Positions 5,002 through 31,706 of a stretch of 64,000 nt of DNA are shown in pieces; the stretch's first letter is position 1, and each line of letters starts with the position of its first letter. The stretch comes from Parcubacteria group bacterium Gr01-1014_3 (GTDB taxonomy: Bacteria; Patescibacteriota; Minisyncoccia; UBA6257; WO2-44-18). Position numbers and translations under genes: made by a program. A model generated the notes under the pieces. That model did no database searches. It was not told where the DNA came from and saw only the letters and a list, made by a program, of their open reading frames with translations. Location of the stretch: assembly GCA_007376445.1 (NCBI GenBank), contig VMGF01000001.1:114875-178874 (forward strand). Direction: 5' to 3'.

Positions 5002-5029
5002 CGATAAATATAACCAAAAAACCGGTCTT

Positions 5030-11949: not shown

Positions 11950-13491
11950 TTAGGGGGCGGGGGTCGCGGGATTCGTAGAATCCCAACGATTTCCAATATT
12001 CTTCTTCAAGCGTTCAGCGACATAGGCCGGCGGGTTAACCGTTCGCCAGGCCCATTCACGGAGCTCAAGAACTCGCTCTGGTGAGATAACGGTATTTTTC
12101 AATACCGGCCGGTGCCAGTTCATCGTGTCCGGATCGAAATTCGGATCAAGATGACCTTTCTGAATCGCGTAATCGTACAGCTGACATCCCGGGAACGGAA
12201 TTGGAATAAAGAACGAACAGTACTTGGCGCCGGCATCCACCGCTCGCTTCGCGTACTCCACGCTCTTCATCAGTTCTTCCTCAGTCTCATCCGGAAATCC
12301 GATCATCATGTTCACGGGGCAAGTAATTCCAACCCGGGAAGCAATCCGAATCATCTCGATAATGTCCATTGTCGGAAGATGCAGTTTGCCGGTAGAGTAC
12401 TTATCCAGAATCCGCTGTGAGCCGGATTCAATCGGGAAAACAATCTGATCAAAACCGGCATCACACAAGAGACGAAGATAGTCCTCGTCGGTATCGAGTT
12501 TTCCGGTCAACTTATTGCGAACCAAGAAATGAACCAGATTCACGCCGTTCACGTCAGCGATGCGCAGCCCCGCGTTAAGAAGATAGGTGAAAATTTCTTT
12601 CACTCTCGCCTTCTTGGCAAGCAAGCTGTCGTCTTCAAAATAAATCTTTTGCACGCCGAGGCTCTTCAGGGTCTCGATCTCTTTGATCACCCTGGGCACC
12701 GACTTCACGCGCAAGTTGCCGATATCTTCCTTGAATTCACGCTCTTTCGAGATATGGCAGTAGGCGCACTTAAACGGGCAGCCACGCGAAGTCATAATCG
12801 GCGCGTACATCATCTTTTCTTCCAAGACCACATCGCCATGTGGTGAAAGGATCTTGGCGTACTTTTTCAGCGGCGACTTATGCCAAGCCGGAATCGGGAG
12901 TTCATCCAGATCCATGCTGGTATCGCCAGACTGGACGGGATTGCCCATCACTCGGCCGTTGTGCATAAACAAAGTCCCACTGACATCATCGATCGATTCG
13001 CCCTTTGCCCACTTCTCGATCAAGCGGACGATGATCTTTTCGCCTTCGGTCGTACAAATAACATCAACGAGCCCGTTGCTCAAAAATCGCTCGGGCATGT
13101 TGCGCGCGTTCACCCCGCCGCTGATGACCAGCATTTCGGGATTCACTTCCTTAGCGATCTTGGCGACCAGGAGCGCCATTCGCGTCTGGGGCGTAAAATT
13201 CGAGTGCACTCCGACGACATTGTAGCCACCCTTAGCGATCACCTCGCGAATCCGTTCGTCCGGCATACCGATGCGGATCAGTCCGTTCTGTTGCGGAATA
13301 CCTTTGTAAAAAGTGTCTTCGAGCGTGTCCTGATCAGTACCAACCGACGCATCCAGGATATCTGCTTCAATACCGGCTCGCTCTAACGCGGCGGCCAGAT
13401 ACAAAGGACCAAGCGATCCATCGGGACGAGCTGTCTCGGTCGGATTCAGCTGATTTGGCGGATAAATGAGCAGAACTTTCGGTGTTTTCAC
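11950..13491 (-). CDS. B12-binding (cobalamin-dependent) radical SAM enzyme, class B, 513 aa
   Basis: N-terminal B12-binding-like domain (VLLIYPP...GPLYLAAALERAGIEADILDA) followed by the radical SAM CxxxCxxC motif (TSRGCPFKCAYCH). Confidence 0.8.
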   Translation of the reverse strand: MKTPKVLLIYPPNQLNPTETARPDGSLGPLYLAAALERAGIEADILDASVGTDQDTLEDTFYKGIPQQNGLIRIGMPDERIREVIAKGGYNVVGVHSNFTPQTRMALLVAKIAKEVNPEMLVISGGVNARNMPERFLSNGLVDVICTTEGEKIIVRLIEKWAKGESIDDVSGTLFMHNGRVMGNPVQSGDTSMDLDELPIPAWHKSPLKKYAKILSPHGDVVLEEKMMYAPIMTSRGCPFKCAYCHISKEREFKEDIGNLRVKSVPRVIKEIETLKSLGVQKIYFEDDSLLAKKARVKEIFTYLLNAGLRIADVNGVNLVHFLVRNKLTGKLDTDEDYLRLLCDAGFDQIVFPIESGSQRILDKYSTGKLHLPTMDIIEMIRIASRVGITCPVNMMIGFPDETEEELMKSVEYAKRAVDAGAKYCSFFIPIPFPGCQLYDYAIQKGHLDPNFDPDTMNWHRPVLKNTVISPERVLELREWAWRTVNPPAYVAERLKKNIGNRWDSTNPATPAP

Positions 13492-15418: not shown

Positions 15419-17266
15419 CTAATGCTTTATTTTATATATTTCTACCGCCTCGTTTCTGTATACTAATTCTAAGTTATTTTCCCGGTGTAGGTCTGCTCGG
15501 CCAAACTGACGCTCCCAGGGTCCATAAAAAGCGTAATCAGCCTCAATATTTTTCCAATCTAGCACAATTTTCTTATAACGGTCCATCAATTCTTTGATTT
15601 TCCATTCTGGCATACCCCGCTTACCGAGATTTTCCGGATCCACAAAAGAAAGTTGATAAAGATACAGCTTGGCGTCCACGATATTGCTCAGACCATATGT
15701 TGTCCCGCAGCTCTCGATGCATGTAATACCATGCCCGGACCTCAAGCGCTTCTCGATTATGCCGGAAGGAATCTTAAATAAAGCGTTCGCGGTAAGGAAT
15801 CTCTCTTCAATTTCATGATTCGATTCAACCGTTACGCCTCCCCATGGTAGAAATGGGCGACCAGCAGTGAAAGCCGCGGTGTAGATCGAGGTTAAAAGCG
15901 ATGGCGAAATAATCCTTGGTTCACCGGGAATATTATTTTCAATCCATTTCCAGGAAGTCAGAATCGATTCGGGAAGCATGTGTTCTTCAATGACCTTAGT
16001 AGAAGGATTGATAAATCTAGTAATGTTGTTTACTTTTTTGACGATTAAGCTGGCCATAAGAGCCATGAAGATCAAAAAGACTATTTTTGCCGGTTTTTGT
16101 CCTATGAATTCAATCCTTCTGATCCCTTCTCGTACAAGATGCATCAAAATTACAAAAAGTGGCGGATTAATTGCCCTCGGCCAATGGTCAGAGTGTGGCA
16201 CATAGCCAATCACTAGCTGGATATTCCAAATCACAAAGGCGGCCGCTAGGATGCTCCAGTATAAAACCGCCCAGTCTCGCTGCTTCAGTATTCGCCAAAA
16301 AACTATGAAAATTAACGCGGCAACCATGGCATACACAAGATAATGAGGCCAAACATTCCAGCGAAAAAATCTACCGAATTCAAGACCAAGCCGATTAATC
16401 AGGTCCTGGCCAGAAGCCAAATGAGAAACTCTAAAATAATTAATAAAGTATGGAATGCTCGTAAAAAGCATTGATCCTAATAACGCCGCATAACTCTTAA
16501 CGCGATTTTTATCACCATGAAAAAAGAAAAGAGTTGCCGTAAAACCAATGCCTAAAACTACCGCCCAAAAAACCCAGATATGGAAATAAGTGTAAAAAAG
16601 CAGTCCTGCGACAACGCCTGATACAATTCCCAATTTTAAACTTGGGCTTTTCCAAAACCAAAAAAATAAAGCAATTGCGGGTAAGTAAACTAGGTGAGTA
16701 AGTAATGGCTGATCGATTCGCGCGTAAAAAAGCAGAGATAAAGCGGTCTGAACTCCAGGATAAAAATTTTTTAATACAATATTGGCAAAATCGCCAAATC
16801 CAAAAAATGCTTCTGTCATTACTAACGACATTGGCGTTAAAATTCCGATCAGACCTAAGATGATGGCCCAGAAATTGTCTTTTTGAAAAATTATTCGCCC
16901 AATAGAGTAAAAAGCTAAAAAAAGAATGGCGGGCAGAAAAAAGCTGGCAAATAAATACGCCGTATTCACATCGCCCACTAGAGCGATAAAGATTCCTAAA
17001 ATAAGCGGAGGTAATGGCGGATAAATGTTCGGCAAAATGTGGCTAAAAAAAAGATCCCCAGGCGGAAAATGACCGTCGGCTACCTCACGAGCAAATTGGA
17101 TGTAAGCGTCTCCCCCGTCATGAAGATTGGTAAGTTGGGAGAGGATAAATGTCCGGCCACTGTTTTCTACCGCCCTTTTTATAAACAACTGGGGCGCGAC
17201 ATATAAAATACCGACAGCGATCGCGAGCAATCCTACGACGACAACCTGCCGATTAAACCGGCTCAT
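15419..17266 (-). CDS. GT-C fold polyprenyl-phosphate-sugar-dependent glycosyltransferase (ArnT/PMT-like), 615 aa polytopic membrane protein
   Basis: First extracytoplasmic loop carries DGGDAYIQFAREVADG, matching the GT-C/PMT DExxYxxxAREM motif. At least 12 predicted TM helices plus a C-terminal soluble domain. Start codon overlaps the stop of the GtrB-like GT2. Confidence 0.6.
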   Translation of the reverse strand: MSRFNRQVVVVGLLAIAVGILYVAPQLFIKRAVENSGRTFILSQLTNLHDGGDAYIQFAREVADGHFPPGDLFFSHILPNIYPPLPPLILGIFIALVGDVNTAYLFASFFLPAILFLAFYSIGRIIFQKDNFWAIILGLIGILTPMSLVMTEAFFGFGDFANIVLKNFYPGVQTALSLLFYARIDQPLLTHLVYLPAIALFFWFWKSPSLKLGIVSGVVAGLLFYTYFHIWVFWAVVLGIGFTATLFFFHGDKNRVKSYAALLGSMLFTSIPYFINYFRVSHLASGQDLINRLGLEFGRFFRWNVWPHYLVYAMVAALIFIVFWRILKQRDWAVLYWSILAAAFVIWNIQLVIGYVPHSDHWPRAINPPLFVILMHLVREGIRRIEFIGQKPAKIVFLIFMALMASLIVKKVNNITRFINPSTKVIEEHMLPESILTSWKWIENNIPGEPRIISPSLLTSIYTAAFTAGRPFLPWGGVTVESNHEIEERFLTANALFKIPSGIIEKRLRSGHGITCIESCGTTYGLSNIVDAKLYLYQLSFVDPENLGKRGMPEWKIKELMDRYKKIVLDWKNIEADYAFYGPWERQFGRADLHRENNLELVYRNEAVEIYKIKH

Positions 17267-19097: not shown

Positions 19098-20417
19098 TTA
19101 AGTAATTTTTTCTATGAGATCTACGTTGCGCCTGTAAGAAAGTCCGTCCCGAAAAACGAAAAATCGGTCGGCGACCCTCTGTCGATTTTCACTGTCTTTC
19201 ATCGGATTAGCCAAATACTCGTTAATACTACTTAGCATTTCTTCATCGTTTGGAACAAAGCGAATCGCCTTTTCTTTTATTAATGGATAATAGTAGGAAC
19301 TTTCATCAAAATAGTGCTTGTTCTGAAATAATAACGCTGGATCGATAAAATTTATAACCGGCTTGTCAAAAATAAAAGATTCTAAAGAAATAGTTGATTT
19401 GTGATTGATATTTATATCGGTATAAGCCAATGTGGCCTTTAAATTTACGAAAGCGTCTAACTTCTTTTTTGGCTCCGAAATACGCTCCACAAAAATATCT
19501 GGCTCACTCAAAAAAATCCGATACCATTCTGGCTCATCAAAAGGATGGGGGCGAACCAAAAAATTCACATAAGGAATCACGCCTGATTTTCGTAAATCTA
19601 AAATCTTTTTAAAAATCGTGGGCTGGTTCGGGGCGCGGCCGCCAGAGGCGAATAAGATCGTTTTATATTTCGGATTCAGGCCTTTAATGGATAAAAATTC
19701 ATCGCGGCTCGGGATTTGGCGAGAGACGTCAAAATATTGGTCGAACCGCATACTGCCGGTCACAAAAATCCGGTCCGGAGAAAAATGGTGGATTTTGATC
19801 GCCGCGTCCTTGAGCACCTGATTCCAAACAAAAAGGTAGTCCGGCTTACGTGATCGCACGCACTTAAAAGAAGTAAGGTTATCCCAGCTAATGTTAGTGG
19901 CCAGAGTGGGAATACCCATCTTTTTTCCATACAAAATCGCCTCGGCATCAAAGACTTGAACTCCCGGAGTAGCCGTCATAATTAAGGATGGCTGATATTT
20001 CTTGACGTATTCTTCCAGCAAAGAAGATCGCCTCATAAAAAAAAGTTCGAGCGCGGTAAAAAACCGGCTAGTCAAAAATGGCGCGAATGGCCAAGAAATA
20101 AGGCGCAGTAATCTCGCTCTTTTGTCATTCCGGAAAGCGGGACTGTCATAGTAAAACTGCAGGCTCGATACTTTATCAAACTCGTGCATGCAAACGGTGC
20201 GCAGATATTTAGTCACCGCAAAAAGCCTGGGGTTTTGAATTTTCCAAGGCACGCACTCCACGTTCAGGGCAGAAAGGATTTGCTTCGTATCAGAATCGAT
20301 CACATTGCTAAAAATAATCACGCGATATTTTTTGACCAGCTCTTTAATGTAGTTGGTTTTAAGAAGATCGGAGATAAAAAGAGAGTTTTTTAAAAAAAGG
20401 AACAGGGTTTTGTTCAT
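19098..20417 (-). CDS. TagB/TagF-like CDP-alcohol phosphotransferase, paralog 2 (439 aa)
   Basis: Collinear similarity to 3643..5001 and 44157..45512, for example KPVINFIDPALLFQNKHYFDESSYYY versus KPIINIGFEIGQEPDPYKRPTAYY. Confidence 0.55.
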   Translation of the reverse strand: MNKTLFLFLKNSLFISDLLKTNYIKELVKKYRVIIFSNVIDSDTKQILSALNVECVPWKIQNPRLFAVTKYLRTVCMHEFDKVSSLQFYYDSPAFRNDKRARLLRLISWPFAPFLTSRFFTALELFFMRRSSLLEEYVKKYQPSLIMTATPGVQVFDAEAILYGKKMGIPTLATNISWDNLTSFKCVRSRKPDYLFVWNQVLKDAAIKIHHFSPDRIFVTGSMRFDQYFDVSRQIPSRDEFLSIKGLNPKYKTILFASGGRAPNQPTIFKKILDLRKSGVIPYVNFLVRPHPFDEPEWYRIFLSEPDIFVERISEPKKKLDAFVNLKATLAYTDININHKSTISLESFIFDKPVINFIDPALLFQNKHYFDESSYYYPLIKEKAIRFVPNDEEMLSSINEYLANPMKDSENRQRVADRFFVFRDGLSYRRNVDLIEKIT

Positions 20418-20462: not shown

Positions 20463-21200
20463 ATGAATAAGCGGCAAATTAAGGTCCTCGGTGTAATCCC
20501 GGCCCGGGGAGGATCAAAGAGTATAACCCACAAGAACATAGTTTTGGTTGCGGGAAAGCCGCTGATTTATTACACCATCCGTGAAGCCAAAGAATCAAAA
20601 CTTTTAGATGCTGTTATTGTTTCAACCGATGATCCGAAGATCGCCGCCGTCGCCAAAAAATACGGCGCCGATGTCCCATTCCTTCGCCCGGAAAAAATTT
20701 CCGGCGATAAATCAAAAGATATTGAATTTATGCGTCATGCCTTAAGCTGGCTCAAGAAAAATCGCGGCTGGGAACCGGAAATTCTCGTCAACCTCCGGCC
20801 TACCTCGCCGCTGCGAACCGCGGAAGATATTGATAAAGTAATAGCGCTAGCAATTAAAGATAAATGCAGTATCGTCAAAACCGTTTCTCTTCCCTCTCCG
20901 CACAATCCTTTTAAAATGTGGCTTTTTGATGGAAATAAAACATCCATGCAGCCGATTCTGCCAACTAAATACTATAAAACTCTCGGCACGGATGTTCCGC
21001 GGCAAATTTTGCCGCTCGCGTATTGGCAAAACGGTTTAGTTGACGCTATCCGCGTTAAAAATATAAAAACCGGCAAAATTTTTGCCGGTCCTATCGGAGG
21101 TGTGATCACTGACTCCGAAAAATCAATTGACTTAGATGAACCAAAAGACATTAAAACCCTGGAGGAGTTTCTTACCAAGCAGTCCAACCTCCATCGATAA
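20463..21200 (+). CDS. CMP-nonulosonic acid synthetase (acylneuraminate cytidylyltransferase family), 245 aa
   Basis: VLGVIPARGGSKSITHKNI...VIVSTDDPKIAAVAKKYGADV...NLRPTSPLR match the NeuA/LegF/PseF family motifs. Confidence 0.85.
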   Translation: MNKRQIKVLGVIPARGGSKSITHKNIVLVAGKPLIYYTIREAKESKLLDAVIVSTDDPKIAAVAKKYGADVPFLRPEKISGDKSKDIEFMRHALSWLKKNRGWEPEILVNLRPTSPLRTAEDIDKVIALAIKDKCSIVKTVSLPSPHNPFKMWLFDGNKTSMQPILPTKYYKTLGTDVPRQILPLAYWQNGLVDAIRVKNIKTGKIFAGPIGGVITDSEKSIDLDEPKDIKTLEEFLTKQSNLHR

Positions 21201-21912
21201 CTAGAGTGGAGCCGGTCATATAACTCGAGGCATCTGAAGCCAAGAACAGCATGGCTCCGTTATACTCATCTGGTTCGGCCATTCGCCCGAGCATTGTCTT
21301 GGCGCTGTAATTTTTCACAAAACGCTTATCGTGGCCGCGGAACACTCCGCCAAGCACGATACAGTTCACTCGAACTCCATGCGGCCCAAGATATCCGGCC
21401 CAGCTTCTCGTAAAGTTTAGCAACGCGCCCTTGACCGTCGCGTAAGCGATGGACTTATGCATTCCCTTCTTGTAAATGCGATCATCGGGAGCATTCAGTC
21501 CATAGTGTGATCCAACATTAATTATCGATCCGCTTCTCTGCTTCATCATGAGCGGCGCCAAGGCCTGGGCGCAGACGAGCGCGCCGGTAAGTCCAACTTC
21601 GATCTCGGCTCTCCAGAGTGAAAGCGGGTACTTTTCGTATCGGGCAAACTGCTGAGATGCCGCCTTATCGTTCGGCGCCGGATTCATAGCCGCGTTGTTG
21701 ATGAGAATATCGACTCGGCCAAATTTCTCCATCAGCTTCCTGGTTGCCACCATAACCTTTGTTGGATTGGTAATATCGATCGAATCCTTCGAATCGCATT
21801 TGTCCCAGGAAACAACCCGGGCGCCGGCCTCCAAGAATGCGCGCGCATATTCCCTGCCTAAAAATCCATTACCGCCGGTAATTACCGCGACCTTGTCCTG
21901 CAGTGGTTTCAC
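21172..21912 (-). CDS. Short-chain dehydrogenase/reductase (SDR), 246 aa
   Basis: KVAVITGGNGFLGREYARAF and YATVKGA (YxxxK). Confidence 0.8.
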   Translation of the reverse strand: MKPLQDKVAVITGGNGFLGREYARAFLEAGARVVSWDKCDSKDSIDITNPTKVMVATRKLMEKFGRVDILINNAAMNPAPNDKAASQQFARYEKYPLSLWRAEIEVGLTGALVCAQALAPLMMKQRSGSIINVGSHYGLNAPDDRIYKKGMHKSIAYATVKGALLNFTRSWAGYLGPHGVRVNCIVLGGVFRGHDKRFVKNYSAKTMLGRMAEPDEYNGAMLFLASDASSYMTGSTLVIDGGWTAW

Positions 21913-22868
21913 GGAGTCTCCTTTCTGAGAATCTGGCCCAGAGCCTGAAGCGCGAGATCGTTAACGATGAGTCCCTGCTTCAAATCCACGGTAGGTTTCA
22001 GCCCGGACCGTATGCATTCAATGCAGTGCTTGATCTCGTCGAGATACATGGTATTTCTCTCAAAATCCGGCGGTAAATCACCGGCTTCGGTTTTATCGTC
22101 CCAGACGATGGAACCATGGGTTCCGACAATCTCTATCCTTCGACGCGTCGGTTTGAGATAACTCAATTCAATACTGCCAACGGCGCCGGAGGTAAACTCC
22201 AGCAAAATCTTGACCGTATCCTCCACGTCGATGTTCAAATCACCTAGCGTTCCACCAAGGCAGGCGATTTTTTTCACATCGCCCATTAGATAGTACGCCC
22301 AATCAATTGCATGGCTCTGGACAAGAATGACACCTCCGCCGAGATCTCGCCGGCAAGCATAGCTCGCGTGATAATCTTCCCACGGATGCCAATTGACAAC
22401 CTGGTCGGAAATTTCAGCGTGAAAAGAAACTACCTTCCCAATTTTCCCATCCCTAAGTTGCGCGTAGGCTCGCTGGATTAACGGATGAAAGCGAAAATGA
22501 TAACCAACCTGCGCTACAAGATTCTTTCCCTCGACCAGCCGCAACAGATCGTGCCGTTCAAAAATATTCGTATCGTGAACAACCGGTTTTTCGATAAATA
22601 GATTGCATCCCGCTCTGGCTGCCGCGAGCGCGGTTTCCATGTGCGCCGATGTCGGGTTCGCCACGATCACCAAGTCCGGACGCTGATTCAGCGCCTCCTG
22701 AAAATCGGTATAGGTAATCGGCTGGAATTCGTCCAAAAATTTCTGAACAAACCCGTCATTCGCTCCCTTGCCGGTTCGATAGACAATGATGTCATCATGC
22801 TTTAAGCTCTTGAGATTGCGATAATGCCTCTGTCCTATTGAGCCGAGTCCGCAGATCAAAAACTTCAT
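21909..22868 (-). CDS. Gfo/Idh/MocA family oxidoreductase, 319 aa
   Basis: MKFLICGLGSIGQRHYRNL Rossmann N-terminus and the EKP motif (IEKP). Confidence 0.8.
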   Translation of the reverse strand: MKFLICGLGSIGQRHYRNLKSLKHDDIIVYRTGKGANDGFVQKFLDEFQPITYTDFQEALNQRPDLVIVANPTSAHMETALAAARAGCNLFIEKPVVHDTNIFERHDLLRLVEGKNLVAQVGYHFRFHPLIQRAYAQLRDGKIGKVVSFHAEISDQVVNWHPWEDYHASYACRRDLGGGVILVQSHAIDWAYYLMGDVKKIACLGGTLGDLNIDVEDTVKILLEFTSGAVGSIELSYLKPTRRRIEIVGTHGSIVWDDKTEAGDLPPDFERNTMYLDEIKHCIECIRSGLKPTVDLKQGLIVNDLALQALGQILRKETP

Positions 22869-22883
22869 ACTGCCTCCTTATTT

Positions 22884-24860
22884 GTGTCTTTAGGTTTACA
22901 AAGAGCACTCATATTGTGCATAATCTTGATGATGAAGTCAACCATACAAAAAATTCAGAATGAGCTTTATTACAGCCTAAATCGTTATCTTGGCTCTAAA
23001 CAAAACGGTCCGGAAGATGAAGCCATTAAAATAACTAATGGTTATAAAAAACTTCCAGGACTGGCGAAAAATACTCCAACCGCGCCGCAAACTTTAGAGG
23101 TGCCAGAATTAAGGCTGTCGGACTATAAAAAAACGCCTTATTTTAATACCCTAACCAACCTCGCCAAGACAGTTCAGGCTGAATTAAAACCCTTTATAAA
23201 AGCCTTTGTTGTCCATGGAAGCTTAGCCACAATGGACTTTATCCCCGACTTCAGCGACCTGGATACGTTTGTGGTCGTAAAGAAAGAAGTTTGCGCGAAC
23301 ACCAAGCTACTAAGCCAACTCAGAGATAAAGTCGTTCAAGCTCAGAAACTACTTTCCGAAATAGATTCGCTCGCCCATCATGGTTTTATTTTTTGCGCTG
23401 AACAAAATCTCTCCTATTACCCCCAGCACTATCTTCCCGTAACGGTATTCCGGTACGCGAAAAGTTTGGACGGACCGGCAAAGATCCAATTTAATATCCG
23501 GGATTCAGCGGAAGAAGCAAAAGAAAATTTCTATCACTACTACGATGTCTTCCAAAAAATCGCTAAAACCGGAAAGATGGAAAATAAACCGGGCAGCAAA
23601 CTTTACCAATTAAAATGGTTTGTGAGCATGCTCCTTTTAATGCCGAGCCTTTATCTTCAAGCCAAGGGAATTTATCTCTACAAGAAATTTTCTTTTGATT
23701 TTGTTCGGCATCCATTTCTGGAAAAGCTTAGCTTGGTCAGAAAAAACTTTAACAAGACGGCAGAAATTTTAGGTGAAGGTTATTTGAAAGAAGCGGCAAA
23801 AATGCTGAACGAATGGGCATCTGGCCTGGAACAATTTGAAAAAGATCGGAAAATTATAAACCACCCGAGAAAAATTCCGTTGTCGGTTTACGGAAAAGCC
23901 CGGCGGGAATTAGTTAGTCACTTCCGGAAAAATTCGGATGTCTTGGCGTTTTATGAATATGGCACGGTCAAAGCCCCGGGCATCAGCGACCTAGACCTTA
24001 TTTTGGTCCTAAAAGAAAAACTCAAAAATCCCTTCCGATATCCGACAGGACCAAATATAGACAAAGTTGCCAAGGGAGGACTGATCATAATGACCAAGTC
24101 AGTCTTCGAAAATGTCCAAATTTTTGACCAAACAAATTTAAAAAAGCTTTTCGGCCAAGATATCAAAGTAAAACAATTAAGCAAAAAGGAATTGGAATTG
24201 CGATCTATCGTTAGTGTCGCTGACTGGTTGCCGGAACGCATACTCCGACTGATCGGCATGCTTCGCGCCAATCCCCTCGATGTTCAGCATGCCCTTCGGT
24301 ATACACGCTCCTTCGCTTATTCATTAGAAAACGCGGCGCGCCTGACCGGCCTGAAAGATTACGATAAGTTTCTATGGGAACTACAAGAACTGCGGAGCCA
24401 ATGGAAACCGTTGAAAATAGAGCAGCTGCGGAGCTTAATTAAAAGAGGTGTTTATTGGGGCTATGAAGCCCTTAGCCGTTTTACTGAAAAATATTTCTCC
24501 GACCCTCAGCCTGCTTCCGGAGAACTTGAGTTATTCAAAAATCAAAAAATCGTTTTTGCCGATCAGCCGAGCAAGGTTGATGCCGATTGGGCCATCAGCG
24601 CTTCTCAGCAAAGATCATCCGACATCGTAGTCGTCGACCCACGGCTCGCATCGCAATTCTTTACTTACAGCCGACAGCCGGGAATTTTAGCTAAGCAAAT
24701 GCGCCGGCAACTTAATCTCAAGAACGGCCAGCTTATAAAAAATAAAAACCACCGACAATTCCTCGTTGATAAGATAAGGCTAGCTAACCACTGCGCCGAA
24801 TTTCTTAAAAGAGAAGGCTTTAAATCCGGCCTCTATCGTTTCGGATTTTATCTTAAGTAA
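22884..24860 (+). CDS. Large protein with two nucleotidyltransferase-fold (LicD-like DxD) motifs; candidate CDP-alcohol phosphotransferase, 658 aa
   Basis: HGSLATMDFIPDFSDLDTFVVV and YGTVKAPGISDLDLILVL both fit G[ST]-x(8-11)-D-x-D (NTase fold; LicD-like GxxxxxxxFIPxDxDID). Confidence 0.5.
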   Translation: MSLGLQRALILCIILMMKSTIQKIQNELYYSLNRYLGSKQNGPEDEAIKITNGYKKLPGLAKNTPTAPQTLEVPELRLSDYKKTPYFNTLTNLAKTVQAELKPFIKAFVVHGSLATMDFIPDFSDLDTFVVVKKEVCANTKLLSQLRDKVVQAQKLLSEIDSLAHHGFIFCAEQNLSYYPQHYLPVTVFRYAKSLDGPAKIQFNIRDSAEEAKENFYHYYDVFQKIAKTGKMENKPGSKLYQLKWFVSMLLLMPSLYLQAKGIYLYKKFSFDFVRHPFLEKLSLVRKNFNKTAEILGEGYLKEAAKMLNEWASGLEQFEKDRKIINHPRKIPLSVYGKARRELVSHFRKNSDVLAFYEYGTVKAPGISDLDLILVLKEKLKNPFRYPTGPNIDKVAKGGLIIMTKSVFENVQIFDQTNLKKLFGQDIKVKQLSKKELELRSIVSVADWLPERILRLIGMLRANPLDVQHALRYTRSFAYSLENAARLTGLKDYDKFLWELQELRSQWKPLKIEQLRSLIKRGVYWGYEALSRFTEKYFSDPQPASGELELFKNQKIVFADQPSKVDADWAISASQQRSSDIVVVDPRLASQFFTYSRQPGILAKQMRRQLNLKNGQLIKNKNHRQFLVDKIRLANHCAEFLKREGFKSGLYRFGFYLK

Positions 24861-25730
24861 CTACTTGCGGCGCAACTTTTTCATGATCGGCTCCTCGGAT
24901 GGAAGGATGCGCTTAACGCCATCGCCCCTGGACTTCTCGTAGTTACGAATTTCTTTAACAAGCATCTGCAGTCCTTTCTTTTCCAGGCTAGCCGCCTGAT
25001 CAGTACCCCACATTGAGCGATCAAGCGTGATGTGCCTTTCCACCATGCAAGCTCCCAGCGCGACTGCCGTTACCGATGACACCACTCCTTTTTCGTGGCC
25101 ACTATAACCGATTGGAATTCCGTAGCGTTGCTGAAAAGCCGGGATAACATGCAAATTAAGTTCGTGTAGCTCCGCCGGGTAAGTGGAGACCGCGTGTAAA
25201 ACCACTAAGTTTTCTTTACCCAAAATTGAAACGGCATGATCTACCTGCTCTTGATTGCTCATGCCAGTAGAAAGAATTATGGGCTTGTTCTTGCTCTTAA
25301 TGTGAAGCAACAATGCGTCGTCGGTCAAAGAAGCGGAAGCTATTTTATAAAAAGGCGGGTTAAATTTATCCAAAAAGTCCACGCTATCTTCGTCCCAAGG
25401 AGAAGCTGACCAAAGGATTCCCTTTTGTTTGCAGTAATCAGCGATGACCCCGTAGCTTAGGTCATCAAATTCCATTTTGTGGCGATAATCAATATAGCTG
25501 ATATAACCCCACGGAGTTTCCCGCATTTTTTCCCATTGATCACGAGGCACGCACTTTTCCGGAGTTCGTTTTTGGAACTTCACCGCGTCGCAACCGGCAT
25601 CTTTAGCCATATCGATCAGTTTTTTAGCAACCGCCAAATCACCGTTGTGGTTAATGCCGATTTCGGCAATTACGAACACGGGTTGTCCTGTTCCAACTAA
25701 GCGATCTCCTATTTTTACTGGTTTACTCAT
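24861..25730 (-). CDS. Nonulosonic acid (N-acetylneuraminate/pseudaminate/legionaminate) synthase, NeuB family, lacking a C-terminal SAF domain, 289 aa
   Basis: VFVIAEIGINHNGDLAVAKKLIDMAKDAGCDAVKFQ and IGYSGHE fit the NeuB/SpsE family. Confidence 0.85.
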   Translation of the reverse strand: MSKPVKIGDRLVGTGQPVFVIAEIGINHNGDLAVAKKLIDMAKDAGCDAVKFQKRTPEKCVPRDQWEKMRETPWGYISYIDYRHKMEFDDLSYGVIADYCKQKGILWSASPWDEDSVDFLDKFNPPFYKIASASLTDDALLLHIKSKNKPIILSTGMSNQEQVDHAVSILGKENLVVLHAVSTYPAELHELNLHVIPAFQQRYGIPIGYSGHEKGVVSSVTAVALGACMVERHITLDRSMWGTDQAASLEKKGLQMLVKEIRNYEKSRGDGVKRILPSEEPIMKKLRRK

Positions 25731-25765: not shown

Positions 25766-27969
25766 TCAAATGTTTCTGGAATTGAAAATCCACTTTGGAT
25801 TAAACAAACTCCAATAATCATATTTAAAAACTACACTATGAAGGCCGGCGGGAACAAAAATTCCCGGAAAGACAGTGTTAACTTTATACATTGGCACTTC
25901 TTGGTCGTCAAGGAAGGCTCTCCAGCCGGGAAGATAATTCTGGGTGAAACCGAACATTCTACTATGATGTCCCTGAAACCACTCGCCTTGAAAGATCGGT
26001 ATATTTCCGATGGATCAGATTTAAAGTCGGTAATATTGGCGAAATAGACCAACGGCTTGGCAGTCGGATTATTATAGATGGCTATCGGAATATGGGCAAT
26101 ATCATCATCGCCAACCCTCAGATTAAGAGACCACTCTCCGATGCGCGGCAAATCTATTTTCGGGGCAAAGTCGTTATGATCAAAGGGAAGAAAGGTCATG
26201 AAATAACGTATTCCCAAAAAATCCGCCAATGGGAGCCGGCTTGCCAATAAGCGATATTTCTCTATTATCGAAAAATCTCGATTATCTTTAATAATGTATG
26301 TCTTATCGAGTTTTTTTTCACCTCCAGTCGTAACTAATTGGCGAGTACCAACTAATGCCATTAATCGACCCATTTCGACATTAAGCAAGGGCTCATTGGC
26401 TTCTAAATTCTCCACGCCATAGAGTAGCTGGAAGTTGGGACGGTAAGTCGGCAAATTAAATGAGGAATTATAAAGAAAATCATCTTTGGGCGGAGTATAT
26501 CCCGGATGAAAGATAGAAAAAAATAAATCGTCCCAGTCATCCGTAAAAAGAGGCAAGACCCTCTCTCTGGTCTCCCTCAGAAAGGCGGCGGTCGGCGGAT
26601 CTTTCTCATAAAAAGAACGGGATACAATAGTAGATATATTAAAGCGGTAAAAAATAACTATAAATTCTAAAAATGCCAAAATGCAAAGCGCTAAGACTTT
26701 GTGGCTGCGAAAAGAGAATGGATAATCTAAGGCTATAGCCAAAGCAATCGCAAGAATAATTGCGGAAATCATTACCGAAAATAAAGTATCCTGATTCTTA
26801 AAAACACCAAGGGCTAAAAGCAAAAAGATGCTTATCCCGACGCCGATTAGACACAGAAGCCCCGTTGCTTTCTTTTTGTTTTGTTCAAAAAACGACATGA
26901 AGTAACTACTCCCATATCCAACAAGAACGGCCGCGGCAAAAGTTCCTATCAACATAAACCGGGCGGCGCCCTGGAAAAGATTAAAAATCGGCAGGTGACT
27001 CAATAATTGAAAAAGAGGTGAGCCGTGAATTGATAAAACAACGGCAATTAAAAATACGCCTCGAAAAAAACCAATCATTTCTCTTTTAACCCAGAATGAA
27101 AGAATTAAAAATATTAGCGGAACCATCCCGGGATACAAATACGCGTCAAGGCCTCGACTGGAAGTCAGATGGAAAAAATTCAGCAATTGTTCCGGCAAAA
27201 TCGCGTACCCTTCATGGGCAAATCCGCCACTTCGTTGTGAAAATTGAGTCATAACATAAGTTGGCACCAACTGAAGCAACCCAATGCCCGTTCCGATCAG
27301 AAAAATGAGGAAAAATGCCGAAAGGATTCGAGGAAAAATCTTTTTGTATCTATCCCTCCAACCCAAGAACAGAACGAAGCTAAAAGCGGCTGACGCGATA
27401 TACAAAATGGGAAAATAAGAAGACATTAGCCAGCCGTACCCGATCAAAAGTCCTCCTAAAAAAATGAGGAGCGCCCGCTTCTTTGTAGAATCGCTCTTAT
27501 ATATCTTAATTAAAATCAAAAAAAGTGCCGGCTGGATAAAAAGCGCGGTTCCTAATACTAAATCTCTCGCAAAGTGAATGTTGCCGGCAAAATAAGCGAA
27601 GGCGCCGATAAAAGACGGCCAAATACCTATATCGAGTTCTCGCATAAATAAAATAAAGAAGAGGCATGCCAATGACAGCGTAAGCCACAGTCCCCAATAA
27701 TGGACAGTTGCTGCCGGGAGAATATACAAAAAAAGATAAATTGGCGCGAACGGGAAACCGCCTATGGAAATAAAGTTAGGAAATCCCGTGGCTATATAAG
27801 GATTCCAAAATGGGCTTTCGCTTTTTGTAATGGCATTCTTATAAAATGTCATCTGGGGGATATTTAATTCAACGGAATCGGTCCCCATCACATAGGCGCC
27901 AATTAAAACCGGAATAGAAACCACCCCGATTATGAAAAAGGAAATTAAAAGAATTTTAGTTGTGTTCAT
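25766..27969 (-). CDS. YfhO-like polytopic membrane protein (GT-C-like candidate), paralog 1, with a reading-frame discontinuity near 25950
   Basis: Main frame runs 25831..27969 (track ORF trimmed to MNTTKIL..., which abuts the stop of the upstream MT). A conserved C-terminal beta-domain (FTQNYLPGWRAFLDDQEVPMYKVNTVFPGIFVPAGLHSVVFKYDYWSLFNPKWIF) is encoded in a different frame at 25766..25957. Confidence 0.5.
25851..25949. repeat. 99-bp segment 100% identical to 29612..29710 (copy 1)
   Basis: Direct reading: ggaacaaaaattcccggaaagacagtgttaactttatacattggcacttcttggtcgtcaaggaaggctctccagccgggaagataattctgggtgaaa appears in both YfhO-like paralogs, although their flanks are diverged. Confidence 0.9.
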
Positions 27970-27971
27970 TT

Positions 27972-28775
27972 CTACTTCTTTCTGGCAATTACATAAAAAC
28001 CGCAAGAAATATATTCAGCGCCGCGATAGCGAATCAAGATCAAATCTAAAAGCTTGATGGGAAAAGTAACTATTACTAAAAACATCCAAATAATATCTTT
28101 TAAAATACGGACATTAAAAGACAACAATAAGGATAACCATTCCTGGGCAATGAATAAAAAGGCGGATGTCGGTCCAATAATTGGCTTAACTTCTACTATC
28201 TCCATATCCGAAAATAAAAAACGGAGTCCCTCCGCCGTCCAACGAGAATAATCATGCGGCGAAGGATGAAATGGCATTAAAAAATTAGTGGCCAGATAAA
28301 GGTAGCCGCCGCTTTTTAAAACCCGCTTCATCTCTCTAATTCCTTGAAGTGGGTTTTCCAAATGCTCTAAGACCCAGGCAGAGACAATGCCATCCAACGA
28401 TTCATCATTAAAGGGCAGGTCCTGGGCATCCGCCAGCACATCTACCTCATTCCACGGATGAATGTCCACGTTGATGATTTCCGGATGCAAACGACGGCTT
28501 CCGGAACCGATTTCCGCGACTAAACCACTAGACGAAACATATTTGAAGATGGACCTTGGCGGCTTCCCCAAGAAAAGCGCCGGCGCAAGAACGTAGAAAA
28601 TGAAAGAATAAAGCCTAGGGAATCGACGGAAAAAAGTCTTCAATCGCACGATAAACCCTGTATGCAGATCCCGCTCCGTCTGCGCATATATATCGTCTTT
28701 GATAAAAAGCGGCCTTCCCTCAATAAATCTCCTAGGTGGTATTTTAAATTTTAAACGCTCCAGCTTCGATTTCAT
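27972..28775 (-). CDS. Class I SAM-dependent methyltransferase with C-terminal membrane helices, paralog B (267 aa)
   Basis: VAEIGSGSRR ... LKSGGYLYLATNF; about 50% identical to 14611..15405. Confidence 0.75.
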   Translation of the reverse strand: MKSKLERLKFKIPPRRFIEGRPLFIKDDIYAQTERDLHTGFIVRLKTFFRRFPRLYSFIFYVLAPALFLGKPPRSIFKYVSSSGLVAEIGSGSRRLHPEIINVDIHPWNEVDVLADAQDLPFNDESLDGIVSAWVLEHLENPLQGIREMKRVLKSGGYLYLATNFLMPFHPSPHDYSRWTAEGLRFLFSDMEIVEVKPIIGPTSAFLFIAQEWLSLLLSFNVRILKDIIWMFLVIVTFPIKLLDLILIRYRGAEYISCGFYVIARKK

Positions 28776-29562: not shown

Positions 29563-31706
29563 ACAAGCTCCAGTAATCATATTCAAATTGCACGGTATGG
29601 ATGCCGGCAGGAACAAAAATTCCCGGAAAGACAGTGTTAACTTTATACATTGGCACTTCTTGGTCGTCAAGGAAGGCTCTCCAGCCGGGAAGATAATTCT
29701 GGGTGAAATTCGTATATTTCCATCGGATCTGATTTGAAAGCGGTAACATCGGCGAAATAGGCCAGTGGTCTGGCGTTCGGATTTAAATAAGTTGATATCG
29801 GAAGACTGGCGGCTTCTTCGTTGCCAATGGCTAGATCAAGAAACCACCTTCCAACTAACGGCAGGGTTATCTTCGGATCAAGCTGGTCAAAAGCGAAGGG
29901 GCTCATAAAATAACGTATTCCCAAAAAATCCGCCAATGGGAGCCGGCTGGCCAGTAAGCGATGTTTCTCTATGACCGAAATATCTCGACCATCTTTAACC
30001 ACGTATGTCTTGTCCAGCTTTTTTTCACCACCGTCTGTAACCAGTTGCCGGGTACCTAAAAAAGCCAGCAGTCTTCCCATCTCCACATTAAGAAGAGGAT
30101 CATTGATTTCCAGGGTCTCTATTCCATAAAGCAACGAGTAATTGGGGCGGTAAGTCGGTAAATCAAGTGAAAGGTTATAAAGAAGATCTTCCTTGGGTGG
30201 TGTATCCCCAGGACGAAATTGATAAAAAAATGTATCGTCCCAGTCATCCACGAAAAGCGGCAAGACTCGGCCAGGCTGTCCCTTAAAAAAATCTAAAGTT
30301 GCTGGCTTCATTTCATAAAGACGCCTATCGATCACAAACGACTTATTGAATGAATAAAAGAACATGGCCATGTCTAAAACCGTAAGAATTGTTAGTAACG
30401 GTAAAAGCAGTAGTAGTTTTTTAACAGACAGCTTAAAAATTAAATAAACCAGGGTTAAAAAAACAGCGGAAATAAGCACCGAATAAAAAACGGTCTGGGT
30501 TCGAAAAACAAGAATGGTCAGGATCATTAAAGAGGCCATTCCAATTGTAATTGCCGTTAATCTTTTTTTAATTATCGCGCCGCCTAAAACATATTCACAC
30601 CCGAAACCCACTAAAACCGATCCGGCAAATGCGCCGACAAACATAAACCTCGCCGATCCCTGGAAATAGCTGAACAGGGGTAATTTAATAATCAACCAAA
30701 ACAATGGAGATCCTTTAATGGAGATTGCTAGAGCAATCAAAAAAAACCATCGGAAAAATTTTGCAATGGGATTTTTACTGAAAAAAGAGAAAATAAGCAG
30801 CATTAGTGGCGCGATGCCTAAATACAAATAAGCTTCGAGACCTCGCTGCGGCGTAAGGTGCACAAAGTTCAACAGTTCCTTAAAACCAATCGCATATCCT
30901 TGGGCAACCTGATAGGCCAGCCCGGCGCTTCGTCCCGAAAACTGGGCCATGATATATACGGGAACCAACTGCAACGCGCCAATTAAACTGCCGATTAAAA
31001 ATGATGCAGCCAGCGCCGCGATTAATCTATAAAAAACTATTTTGCCATGTTTTATACCAAGAAAAACTACGAACGCGAGGAGAGTGGTAAAAATATAGAG
31101 GTTTCCAAAATACACCACAGTTGTCAGCCATCCCCAGGCCACCGCGAGTGAGCCAATCCCCGCGTATAAAACAAATTTTTGCCAACCAGAACTTTTCAAA
31201 ATCATCATAATAACCAAAAAAAGAACTGCCTGAACCAAGAGGATATTTATTACGGTGGCATTTTGTGACCAATAGAAATCTCCGATGATATAGCTTAGGC
31301 CGCCAATCAACGAACCCCAAGTTCCGATACCTAGTTCGCGTAGAAAACGAACAGAGAAAAAAAGTGTTAGCGACAGCGCAAACCACAAATACCAATAATG
31401 GGCCGCTATAGGAGATAAAAAGCGCGCCAATTGAACCACTGGCGCGAACGGACTGCTTAAATTGCTGATAAAATTCGGAAATCCAACGGCTATATACGGG
31501 TTCCAAAACGGGCTTTCGCCTTTCGCGAACGCGTCTTTAAAAAAAGTGAGCTGAGGAATCATCAACTCTGAGGCATCGGCTGAAAGCACTTTGCTGCCGC
31601 TAAGCATCGGAAACAGGAGAATGAAAAATAAAACAAAGCAAACTATCAAAAGACCCCACCAGGTGCTGACAAGATTCCGAACACGCTCTAAAATAGAAGG
31701 TCGCAT
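29540..31706 (-). CDS. YfhO-like polytopic membrane protein, paralog 2, with a reading-frame discontinuity near 29710
   Basis: Main frame 29667..31706 (679 aa). Conserved C-terminal domain (FTQNYLPGWRAFLDDQEVPMYKVNTVFPGIFVPAGIHTVQFEYDYWSLFNPRWIF) lies in another frame at 29540..29749. Homologous along its length with 25831..27969. Confidence 0.5.
29612..29710. repeat. 99-bp segment 100% identical to 25851..25949 (copy 2)
   Basis: See copy 1. Confidence 0.9.

What the first reader, a model, noticed from the sequence alone, without database searches (positions are those of the whole stretch)
22884..24860. 658-aa protein with two LicD-like nucleotidyltransferase-fold DxD motifs on the opposite strand from its neighbours
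Both HGSLATMDFIPDFSDLDTFVVV and YGTVKAPGISDLDLILVL fit the LicD/fukutin-type G[ST]x(n)DxD active site. These enzymes transfer phosphocholine, ribitol-phosphate or glycerol-phosphate from CDP-alcohols. A double-module LicD-like protein alongside three TagB/TagF-like CDP-alcohol phosphotransferases suggests the glycan is decorated with alditol-phosphates, which is teichoic-acid-like chemistry. The remainder of the protein has no recognisable similarity, and the gene is one of the few on the plus strand (mosaic insertion?).
Basis: inference. Interest (0 to 1): 0.5.

Follow-up and report, generated by a model that had tools for sequence, protein, structure and literature searches.

The report
Paired nucleotidyltransferase in sialic-acid-like sugar cluster
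The gene is real and has two nucleotidyltransferase modules, but it is not a LicD enzyme or an insertion: it belongs to a large, unnamed family of obligately paired, aminoglycoside-nucleotidyltransferase-like proteins found in surface-glycan gene clusters, here inside a conserved cassette for a sialic-acid-like sugar.

Summary
The ORF and both G[ST]…DxD motifs are present. The likely start is ATG 22929, giving 643 aa.

Family assignment:
- Pfam scores only NTP_transf_2 above threshold. It gives no LicD hit.
- Profile-profile comparison with 46 true LicD proteins gives under 1% probability.

The two modules are distinct paralogues and always occur together. They are fused here and are neighbouring genes elsewhere: all 22 first loci, and 68 of about 71 assessable metagenome loci chosen by module 1 alone. 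The family has at least 2,573 cluster representatives and no Pfam, NCBIfam or PADLOC model.

Its tail-to-tail position against NeuB and its linkage to a CMP-sugar synthetase, SDR, Gfo/Idh/MocA and TagB-like genes hold across Patescibacteria. The linkage recurs in a Dehalococcoidales genome and in marine contigs, so this is not a mosaic insertion. In DPANN archaea the pair follows the Wzx flippase.

Best reading (about 0.4): a pseudo-heterodimeric ANT-like enzyme that nucleotidylates a sugar or glycan intermediate. A LicD-like phosphotransfer remains a functional rival (about 0.2). The biochemistry is untested.

The parts
22929..24860 (+). Gene for the 643-aa two-module nucleotidyltransferase. 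The maximal ORF starts at GTG 22884; ATG 22929 is the likely start.
   Evidence: ORF. 100% match to the 643-aa deposited protein P0001. All homologues align from this Met. Sequence around the start.
22938..23843 (+). Module 1: an N-terminal helical/beta lead-in, a Pol-beta NTase core and a helical domain.
   Evidence: hmmsearch with the module-1 profile, 1.4e-147. Pfam NTP_transf_2 at 27.3 bits, above the 21-bit cut-off, on aa 93-143 of the 658-aa ORF. Stand-alone homologues exist.
23214..23279 (+). Module-1 hG[GS] ... DxD motif (H96 G97 S98 ... S109 D110 L D112 T in P0001 numbering).
   Evidence: Kept in 109-114 of 114 representatives. Coordinates.
23364..23384 (+). Module-1 D146-x3-H150-H151-G152 motif. 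It is followed by E158, the likely third carboxylate at the end of the next strand.
   Evidence: D146 114/114, H150 112/114, H151 114/114, E158 88% acidic. Strand 153-157 in the model.
23847..24857 (+). Module 2: a second NTase core, a long helical bundle and a C-terminal beta/alpha part ending in GLYRFGFY.
23958..24011 (+). Module-2 hG[GS] ... DxD motif (Y344 G345 T ... P350 G351 I S353 D354 L D356).
   Evidence: G345, S353, D354 and D356 kept in 88/88 representatives.
24222..24239 (+). Module-2 D432-W-L-P-E436-R motif in the first long helix of the helical domain.
   Evidence: D432 98% acidic, E436 84%, R437 82%. Helix 419-446.
24861..25730 (-). NeuB-family nonulosonic acid synthase. It is convergent with the gene, and the two stop codons abut with no spacer.
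   Evidence: Pfam NeuB 6.9e-81. Closest solved relatives are a 290-aa NeuNAc synthetase (6ncs), PseI and SpsE. The junction is shown. The arrangement is conserved.
20463..21200 (+). CTP_transf_3 cytidylyltransferase (CMP-nonulosonic/ulosonic acid synthetase type).
   Evidence: Pfam 1.6e-20. Present in 9/9 Patescibacteria loci. It overlaps the start of the NTase gene in L002/L003.
21172..21912 (-). Short-chain dehydrogenase of the conserved cassette.
   Evidence: Pfam adh_short_C2 4.8e-39. Eight matches in the 9 related loci. Also in L018 between the two modules.
21909..22868 (-). Gfo/Idh/MocA oxidoreductase of the conserved cassette, divergent from the NTase gene.
   Evidence: Pfam. Seven matches in the 9 related loci. 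Also in L018.
19098..20417 (-). TagB/TagF-like (Glyphos_transf) GT-B transferase, a candidate CMP-nonulosonic acid transferase.
   Evidence: Pfam 4.5e-11. Twelve such genes in the 9 related loci. Literature precedent in PMC5420450.

Best explanation
The gene encodes a soluble 643-aa fusion of two distinct, paralogous nucleotidyltransferase modules. Each module is built like an aminoglycoside nucleotidyltransferase (ANT/KNTase): a Pol-beta NTase core followed by a helical domain.

In most lineages the two modules are separate neighbouring genes. They are therefore an obligate pair that most likely works as a (pseudo)heterodimer.

The pair is a cytoplasmic component of surface-glycan biosynthesis. 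In this genome it belongs to a conserved cassette that makes and uses a CMP-activated nonulosonic (sialic-acid-like) sugar. The cassette comprises NeuB, a CTP_transf_3 synthetase, an SDR, a Gfo/Idh/MocA oxidoreductase and TagB-like transferases.

The most likely chemistry is the default of this fold and of its closest structural relatives: metal-dependent transfer of a nucleoside monophosphate from an NTP onto a hydroxyl (or phosphate) of the sugar or of its glycan intermediate. This would yield a nucleotide-tagged or nucleotide-activated carbohydrate.

Module 1 carries the full catalytic set (D110, D112, E158, plus invariant D146, H150, H151, K229, K252). Module 2 keeps the nucleotide/metal motif but lacks a canonical third carboxylate on the next strand. 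It may be a second nucleotide site or the substrate-binding partner.

Shown: fold class, pairing, conservation, gene context.
Inferred: heterodimer function, donor, acceptor, product.
For: Fold:
- The full model has pLDDT 87.8 and pTM 0.88.
- Foldseek top 20 are AadA, ANT(4'), KNTase and LinB.

Sequence:
- PF01909 scores above threshold.
- Module 1 against module 2 by hhalign gives Prob 95%.
- The catalytic motifs are invariant across 114 and 88 representatives.

Pairing:
- Both modules are present, fused or adjacent, in all 22 loci first collected plus the window.
- L004 and L005 were found through one module only, and each carries the other module next door.
- In 80 metagenome loci chosen by module-1 motifs alone, 68 carry module 2, and 63 of these lie within 300 bp. 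Ten of the rest end at the contig edge.

Glycan role:
- Neighbours are GT4, Wzx, epimerases, aminotransferases, methyltransferases and B12-radical SAM enzymes.
- Direct fusions occur to GT4, methyltransferase, TPR and radical SAM domains.
- The gene overlaps upstream CTP_transf_3 or Wzx genes.

Nonulosonic-acid link:
- CTP_transf_3 is present in 9/9 Patescibacteria loci. NeuB gave 7 matches there, and at least two of the 9 loci end before the NeuB side.
- Dehalococcoidales L018 has the order m1-RNaseT-Gfo-SDR-m2-CTP3-NeuB.
- L103 and a JGI contig carry the minimal cassette m1-m2-CTP3-NeuB.
- NeuB lies within 10 kb in 9 of 45 long metagenome loci.
Against: - No biochemical data exist, and the donor and acceptor are unknown.
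- No nucleotidylated glycan end-product is known from my own knowledge, so an NMP-sugar would have to be an intermediate.
- The cassette already has a canonical CMP-sugar synthetase.
- About two thirds of sampled family members (the DPANN-type loci) have no NeuB nearby. The acceptor therefore cannot be a nonulosonic acid in all lineages.
- Module 2 lacks a conserved acid on the strand after DxD.
I could not check whether the two sites face each other.
Confidence: 0.4

Rival explanations
1. Functional analogue of LicD/FKRP/Cps7C. The pair takes a CDP-alcohol or another NDP-X donor and transfers the phospho-substituent (glycerol-P, ribitol-P, choline-P or similar) onto the lipid-linked glycan before flipping. 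This would be the reader's chemistry without LicD ancestry.
For: - It is an NTase-fold enzyme inside glycan clusters with TagF-like neighbours.
- Recurrent TPR fusions (P0022, P0090, P0091, P0143, P0102, P0105, P0144) parallel Cps7C. Cps7C is a TPR + LicD-type NTase that polymerises glycerol phosphate beside a TagB-like CpsA (PMC11666461).
- In DPANN loci the pair directly follows the Wzx flippase. This recalls pneumococcal licD1/licD2, which are co-transcribed with a sugar transporter (PMC2794190).
Against: - There is no sequence, profile or fold affinity to LicD/FKRP.
- No TagD-, TarI/IspD- or LicD-like gene was found in the window or in 102 related loci. This was a weak single-sequence test using sequences recalled from memory.
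- The NTP_transferase beside the DPANN pairs is RmlA-like (2e-21), not TarI-like (4e-6).
- In several lineages the modules are interleaved with sugar-biosynthetic genes (Gfo, SDR, CTP3, NeuB) rather than with transferases.
Confidence: 0.2
2. GlnE/GlnD/DrrA-like regulatory enzyme. The two NTase modules add a nucleotide to, and remove it from, a protein such as a glycan-pathway enzyme or a surface protein, switching the pathway on and off.
For: - The tandem NTase + helical modules in one chain resemble GlnE's architecture.
- TPR fusions could bind a protein substrate.
Against: - No GlnE or GlnD Pfam domain was reported.
- The best fold matches are small-molecule ANTs, not GlnE.
- Operon coupling and fusions are with sugar-modifying and glycosyl-transfer domains.
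- No candidate target is conserved beside the pair.
Confidence: 0.12
3. An enlarged MNT-HEPN-type toxin-antitoxin or anti-phage module that merely resides in a variable glycan island.
For: - There are marginal PADLOC hits: PDC-S09 at 3.5e-4 and oligonucleotide cyclase at 1.9e-4.
Against: - Each module is about 300-340 aa, not about 100-140 aa.
- PADLOC hits cover only the GS/DxD motif at under 20 bits.
- The glycan context is conserved in dozens of loci across bacterial and archaeal phyla.
- There is translational coupling to CTP_transf_3 and Wzx genes.
- No homologue was found in 72,556 plasmids or 50,697 phage records.
Confidence: 0.03

Closest known systems
Aminoglycoside nucleotidyltransferases ANT(3'')(9)/AadA, AAD(9), ANT(4')/KNTase, and lincosamide NTase LinB
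   Same: - Two-domain build: a Pol-beta NTase core plus a C-terminal helical domain.
- They carry the hG[GS] and DxD motifs.
- Their substrates are (amino)sugar hydroxyls.
- From my own knowledge, KNTase works as a dimer with sites formed between subunits. This fits an obligate pair.
   Different: - The NCBIfam ANT(9) score is 14-21 bits against a 340-bit cut-off.
- This protein has two different modules instead of a homodimer.
- It has extra N-terminal and C-terminal elements.
- Its D-x3-HHG and DWLPER motifs were not looked for in ANTs here.
- It lies in a biosynthetic glycan context, not a resistance context.
LicD / fukutin / FKRP / Cps7C (Pfam PF04991, NTase group XXIII)
   Same: - NTase-fold superfamily.
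- Encoded in glycan clusters beside TagB/TagF-like genes.
- TPR-fused relatives exist in both (PMC11666461).
- Paralogue pairs next to a flippase occur in both.
   Different: - No HMM, profile or fold match.
- It lacks the GTLLGAxRHxGFIPWDDDxD signature of the 46 LicD proteins examined.
- The G[ST]-to-DxD spacing is 11 residues in module 1 and 7 in module 2, against 14 in LicD.
- No CDP-alcohol supply genes were seen.
GlnE (glutamine synthetase adenylyltransferase) and DrrA AMPylation domain
   Different: No GlnE-family Pfam domains were found. The context is sugar biosynthesis, not nitrogen regulation or effector biology.
MNT-HEPN minimal nucleotidyltransferase pairs (HI0073/HI0074, SO_3166/SO_3165)
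   Different: The modules here are three times larger, and each contains both an NTase and a helical part. The context is glycan-operon, with no defence or plasmid association.

Membership tests
LicD / fukutin / FKRP (PF04991) | Match to the family HMM | tested here: not met
   hmmscan against Pfam-A at E<=10 lists only PF01909 and PF18765. My own HMM, built from 46 PF04991 proteins, finds nothing in the window ORFs.
LicD / fukutin / FKRP (PF04991) | Profile-profile relatedness to LicD proteins | tested here: not met
   hhalign of module 1 against LicD gives Prob 0.04%, E 0.92. Module 2 against LicD gives Prob 0.3%.
LicD / fukutin / FKRP (PF04991) | Signature G-T-L-L-G-A-x-R-H-x-G-F-I-P-W-D-D-D-x-D (14 residues between GT and DxD), plus the later D-x-F-P-x-D | tested here: not met
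   The signature is at least 90% conserved in the 46 LicD proteins. The family here has HGSxATxDYxKGWSDxDT and YGSxxxPGxSDLD.
LicD / fukutin / FKRP (PF04991) | Fold closer to FKRP than to other NTases | tested here: not met
   [not shown]
LicD / fukutin / FKRP (PF04991) | Uses a CDP-alcohol donor, with CDP-alcohol synthesis genes nearby | tested here: inconclusive
   No TagD-like or IspD/TarI-like ORF was found in the window or in 102 loci. The queries were single sequences recalled from memory, so sensitivity was low. The neighbouring NTP_transferase of DPANN loci is RmlA-like. Donor use itself cannot be tested with these tools.
Pol-beta-type nucleotidyltransferase superfamily (PF01909 clan; Kuchta et al. 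2009) | hG[GS] and [DE]h[DE]h motifs | tested here: met
   Both modules have them, and they are invariant across 114 and 88 representatives. Motif definition from PMC2794190.
Pol-beta-type nucleotidyltransferase superfamily (PF01909 clan; Kuchta et al. 2009) | Third carboxylate (h[DE]h) on the next core strand | tested here: inconclusive
   In module 1, E158 is 88% acidic at the end of strand 153-157, and D146 is invariant. Module 2 has no conserved acid on strand 385-389; D400 is 77% and D432 98% acidic elsewhere.
Pol-beta-type nucleotidyltransferase superfamily (PF01909 clan; Kuchta et al. 2009) | HMM match above the curated threshold, and the NTase fold | tested here: met
   PF01909 scores 27.3 bits against a 21-bit cut-off for module 1. 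Module 2 is linked through hhalign at Prob 95% and through fold hits to MNT and ANT.
ANT/KNTase-type aminoglycoside nucleotidyltransferases | NTase core plus C-terminal helical domain | tested here: met
   [not shown]
ANT/KNTase-type aminoglycoside nucleotidyltransferases | Sequence membership (e.g. NCBIfam NF012212 ANT(9)) | tested here: not met
   Scores are 14.4-21.1 bits against a 340-bit cut-off.
ANT/KNTase-type aminoglycoside nucleotidyltransferases | NTP-dependent O-nucleotidylation of a sugar hydroxyl | not testable with these tools
   This needs an enzyme assay.
GlnE-type tandem adenylyltransferase | GlnE / GlnD_UR_UTase domains | tested here: not met
   [not shown]
MNT-HEPN toxin-antitoxin / defence NTases | Match to defence-system models and a mobile or defence-island context | tested here: not met
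   PADLOC gives only motif-level hits under 20 bits. No plasmid or phage homologues were found. The context is glycan biosynthesis.

The most novel reading that the evidence does not exclude
The module-1/module-2 pair is a previously unrecognised, widespread heterodimeric enzyme of prokaryotic glycan biosynthesis. It would catalyse a step not yet assigned in nonulosonic-acid or glycan pathways, for example O-nucleotidylation of the sugar or of its CMP-derivative. That could provide a handle for the co-occurring B12-radical SAM, methyltransferase and oxidoreductase enzymes, or produce a new class of nucleotide-activated sugar. The core cassette would be m1-m2-CTP_transf_3-NeuB-GT-B.
Probability: 0.3. 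Interest if true: 0.75.

Novelty: new variant of a known kind. Interest (0 to 1): 0.6.

Why it matters
- **Annotation gap.** The family has at least 2,573 representatives at 50% identity. It spans Patescibacteria, DPANN archaea, Chloroflexota, Planctomycetota, Nitrospirota, Elusimicrobiota and marine Alphaproteobacteria. It is annotated only as 'hypothetical' or 'nucleotidyltransferase domain-containing', and no Pfam, NCBIfam or PADLOC model covers it.
- **Experimental lead.** It is almost always a two-gene or fused pair inside surface-glycan loci, and it repeatedly forms a cassette with NeuB and a CMP-sugar synthetase. Assigning its reaction would fill an unassigned step in sialic-acid-like sugar biosynthesis. 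The organisms concerned (ultrasmall episymbionts, marine plankton) have cell surfaces that matter for host attachment and phage or grazer interactions.
- **Methodological warning.** G[ST]…DxD plus TagF-like neighbours does not identify LicD or teichoic-acid chemistry.

Tried and rejected
- **LicD membership.** Tested four ways (Pfam, own LicD HMM, hhalign, fold search) and rejected.
- **Mosaic insertion.** Rejected on conserved synteny and ordinary GC content.
- **Defence or TA module.** Only motif-level PADLOC hits and no plasmid or phage homologues.
- **The pair as the missing CMP-nonulosonic acid glycosyltransferase.** Considered but unlikely. Patescibacteria loci have TagB-like GT-B genes. 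The marine and Dehalococcoidales cassettes have a conserved 548-aa protein with an HP-type GT-B-like C-terminus. DPANN loci have the pair without NeuB.
- **CDP-ribitol supply in DPANN loci.** The IspD-tagged NTP_transferase is RmlA-like.
- **Sequence search of the PDB with the family profile.** Only marginal CdnD and DrrA motif hits.
- **AFDB Foldseek.** The library was unavailable.
- **Literature searches.** Searches for PF01909 in polysaccharide clusters and for nonulosonic acids in Patescibacteria found nothing on this family.
- **hhalign against AadA.** A single AadA sequence recalled from memory gave only weak matches (E 3e-3 to 5e-3). I treat this as a hint only.
Full report
**Observation**

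The ORF 22884-24860 (+) exists and is 658 aa from the first GTG. It is 100% identical to a deposited 643-aa hypothetical protein of the MAG 'Parcubacteria group bacterium Gr01-1014_3'. That protein starts at ATG 22929, and all 13 aligned full-length homologues start at the same Met. The extra 15 residues are probably not translated.

Both quoted motifs are present, at 23214-23279 and 23958-24011. The gene lies on the + strand between minus-strand neighbours.

The window holds three TagB/TagF-like ORFs. One is confirmed by Pfam (19098-20417). Two more (3646-5103 and 44160-45518) are 25-27% identical to it.

**What the protein is**

Pfam reports only NTP_transf_2 (PF01909) at 27.3 bits against a 21-bit cut-off, plus a sub-threshold Polbeta hit. 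Both fall on the first motif. Nothing is reported for LicD even at E<=10. NCBIfam gives only a 14-bit ANT(9) hit.

An alignment of 14 full-length homologues (41-59% identity) gave an AlphaFold model with pLDDT 87.8 and pTM 0.88.

- Foldseek gives AadA, ANT(4'), KNTase and LinB as its top 20, though with weak E-values of 3e-3 at best.

No FKRP, fukutin or LicD chain appears in any list.

I also tested LicD directly. I collected genuine PF04991 proteins and aligned 46 full-length ones. hhalign of their profile against the two module profiles gave probabilities of 0.04% and 0.3%. The control, module 1 against module 2, gave 95%. The LicD signature GTLLGAxRHxGFIPWDDDxD is absent.

The protein is a tandem of two ANT/KNTase-like modules, each an NTase core followed by a helical domain.

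**An obligate pair and a large unnamed family**

A profile search of 1.84 billion representatives found 2,573 proteins at E<=1e-3 and 1,614 at E<=1e-10.

- Most are stand-alone module-1 proteins (about 340-450 aa) or stand-alone module-2 proteins (about 340-380 aa).
- Some are fusions of about 610-800 aa.
- Some are giants of 1,000-1,700 aa.

Evidence that the two modules always travel together:

- Every one of the first 22 loci, plus the window, contains both modules, fused or in neighbouring genes.
- Two of those loci were reached through one module only. L004 came from P0027 (module 1) and L005 from P0029 (module 2). Each has the other module as the overlapping next gene.
- A metagenome scan seeded only with module-1 motifs returned 80 loci. 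Sixty-eight carry module 2, and in 63 of these it lies within 300 bp. Ten of the remaining loci end at a contig edge. Only two or three lack module 2 with room to spare.

Conservation is that of enzymes:

- Module 1 keeps H96-G-S98, S109-D110-x-D112, D146-x3-H150-H151-G, E158, R191, K229 and K252 in 85-100% of 114 representatives.
- Module 2 keeps G345, P350-G-x-S353-D354-L-D356, D432, E436, S461, R489 and W492 in 83-100% of 88 representatives.
- Module 2 has no conserved acid on the strand after DxD.

No Pfam, NCBIfam or PADLOC model covers the family. All source names are 'hypothetical' or 'nucleotidyltransferase domain-containing'. There are no homologues in the plasmid or phage collections.

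**Context**

The opposite-strand position is not an insertion. In Patescibacteria relatives at 45-59% identity the gene is again tail-to-tail with NeuB. The stop codons abut in the window, and the genes overlap by 14 nt in L001 and 4 nt in L002. The gene also sits next to, or overlaps, a CTP_transf_3 gene. GC content is ordinary.

Pfam matches among 95 neighbouring ORFs of 9 Patescibacteria loci:

| Family | Matching ORFs |
|---|---|
| Glyphos_transf | 12 |
| CTP_transf_3 | 9 (every locus) |
| SDR | 8 |
| NeuB | 7 |
| Gfo/Idh/MocA | 7 |
| HAD phosphatase (Hydrolase_3) | 5 |
| YfhO | 5 |

At least two of the 9 loci end before the NeuB side. Several methyltransferase families also matched.

The window's NeuB is closest to solved NeuNAc, Pse and Leg synthases.

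The same linkage recurs far away:

- A Dehalococcoidales genome (L018) has GT4-GT4-MT24-GT4-m1-RNaseT-Gfo-SDR-m2-CTP3-NeuB on one strand.
- Two other contigs, L103 (an ENA metagenome scaffold) and a JGI metagenome contig, have GT4-MT24-GT4-m1-m2-CTP3-NeuB followed by a conserved 548-aa protein.
- NeuB lies within 10 kb in 9 of 45 long metagenome loci.

The larger group of those loci (29 of 45) is the DPANN type, named from the source annotations. There the pair directly follows, and often overlaps, the Wzx flippase gene. GT4 genes, B12-radical SAM genes, epimerases and an RmlA-like nucleotidyltransferase lie nearby, and NeuB is absent.

Domain fusions point the same way: GT4 (P0045), O-methyltransferase (P0066), TPR (several), TPR + radical SAM/SPASM (P0102, P0105), and TPR + Methyltransf_24 (P0144).

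**Mechanism**

What is shown: fold class, obligate pairing, catalytic-type conservation, and membership of glycan operons, here a nonulosonic-acid cassette.

What is inferred: the pair works as a pseudo-heterodimer, much as KNTase dimers do (my own knowledge). It performs the default chemistry of the fold (PMC2794190) and of its nearest structural relatives, namely transfer of an NMP from an NTP to a sugar hydroxyl or phosphate. Module 1 would be the canonical active site. I put this at about 0.4.

Rivals:

- **LicD-like phospho-substituent transfer by convergence (about 0.2).** It is supported by the TPR-NTase precedent of Cps7C next to a TagB-like enzyme (PMC11666461) and by the flippase-adjacent arrangement. 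It is weakened by the absence of any CDP-alcohol supply genes and by the interleaving of the modules with sugar-biosynthetic genes.
- **GlnE/DrrA-like protein nucleotidylation switch (about 0.12).**
- **TA or defence module (about 0.03).**

The TagB-like neighbours do not by themselves imply teichoic-acid chemistry. TagB-domain proteins beside nonulosonic-acid genes are published candidates for Pse/Leg transferases (PMC5420450, PMC7439481).

**Verdict**

- The LicD assignment, the alditol-phosphate inference and the mosaic-insertion idea are not supported.
- The general idea of a two-module NTase-fold enzyme in glycan biosynthesis is supported.
- The object is a new, widespread and uncharacterised family within a known superfamily, with an unusually strict two-module partnership and a recurrent cassette with NeuB and a CMP-sugar synthetase.
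- Its reaction is unknown and worth testing.

Noticed in passing
L018:7623-8243: An RNase_T/DEDD exonuclease-like ORF (Pfam 5.6e-11) sits inside the Dehalococcoidales operon, between module 1 and the Gfo/SDR/module 2/CTP3/NeuB genes. It is a possible phosphodiesterase partner of the NTase pair. Seen in one locus only.
   Followed up: no
L103:12922-14568; L018:13033-14679: A conserved 548-549-aa protein follows NeuB in the non-Patescibacteria cassettes (44% identity between the two loci; weak Pfam 'LIC12162' tag in the JGI contig). Its C-terminus has an RHPKG…KPVV stretch that aligns weakly with the window's TagF-like ORF. It may be the GT-B nonulosonic-acid transferase of those cassettes.
   Followed up: partly
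window 24858-24863: The stop codon of the NTase gene (TAA) and that of the convergent NeuB gene (CTA on the + strand) are directly adjacent with no spacer. In L001 and L002 the two genes overlap by 14 and 4 nt. There is no room for terminators between convergent genes.
   Followed up: partly
window 25831-28005 and 29667-31706: Two paralogous membrane proteins of about 700 aa (50% identity). Their homologues in related loci carry weak YfhO hits. Together with GT2 genes, this suggests extracytoplasmic glycosylation of a surface polymer.
   Followed up: no
window 15419-17266 and 39330-40781: An unknown 615-aa protein with no Pfam match has a paralogue in the window (36% identity). It also has homologues next to TagF-like genes in other Patescibacteria loci (38-46% identity).
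   Followed up: no
window 8000-42800: The whole stretch is one large glycan-biosynthesis island. It contains at least eight methyltransferases (including a TylC3-like sugar C-methyltransferase at 35947-37227), a B12-radical SAM enzyme (11950-13491), a GHMP kinase, two NUDIX hydrolases, several 4,6-dehydratase/epimerase genes, an RmlA-like gene, and GT2 and GT4 genes.
   Followed up: partly
L105:8566-11245; L004:6944-9650; L016, L017, L021: In DPANN archaeal loci the Wzx flippase gene overlaps the start of the module-1 gene. One to three B12-binding radical SAM genes lie within a few kb. In the Woesearchaeota genome loci, module 2 is encoded convergently to module 1 rather than co-directionally.
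   Followed up: partly
L015:1631-3746; L083, L085, L094-L096, L098, L099: The gene order is reversed (module 2 upstream of module 1) in an Elusimicrobia genome and in a set of marine contigs. All fused proteins examined have the order module 1 then module 2.
   Followed up: no
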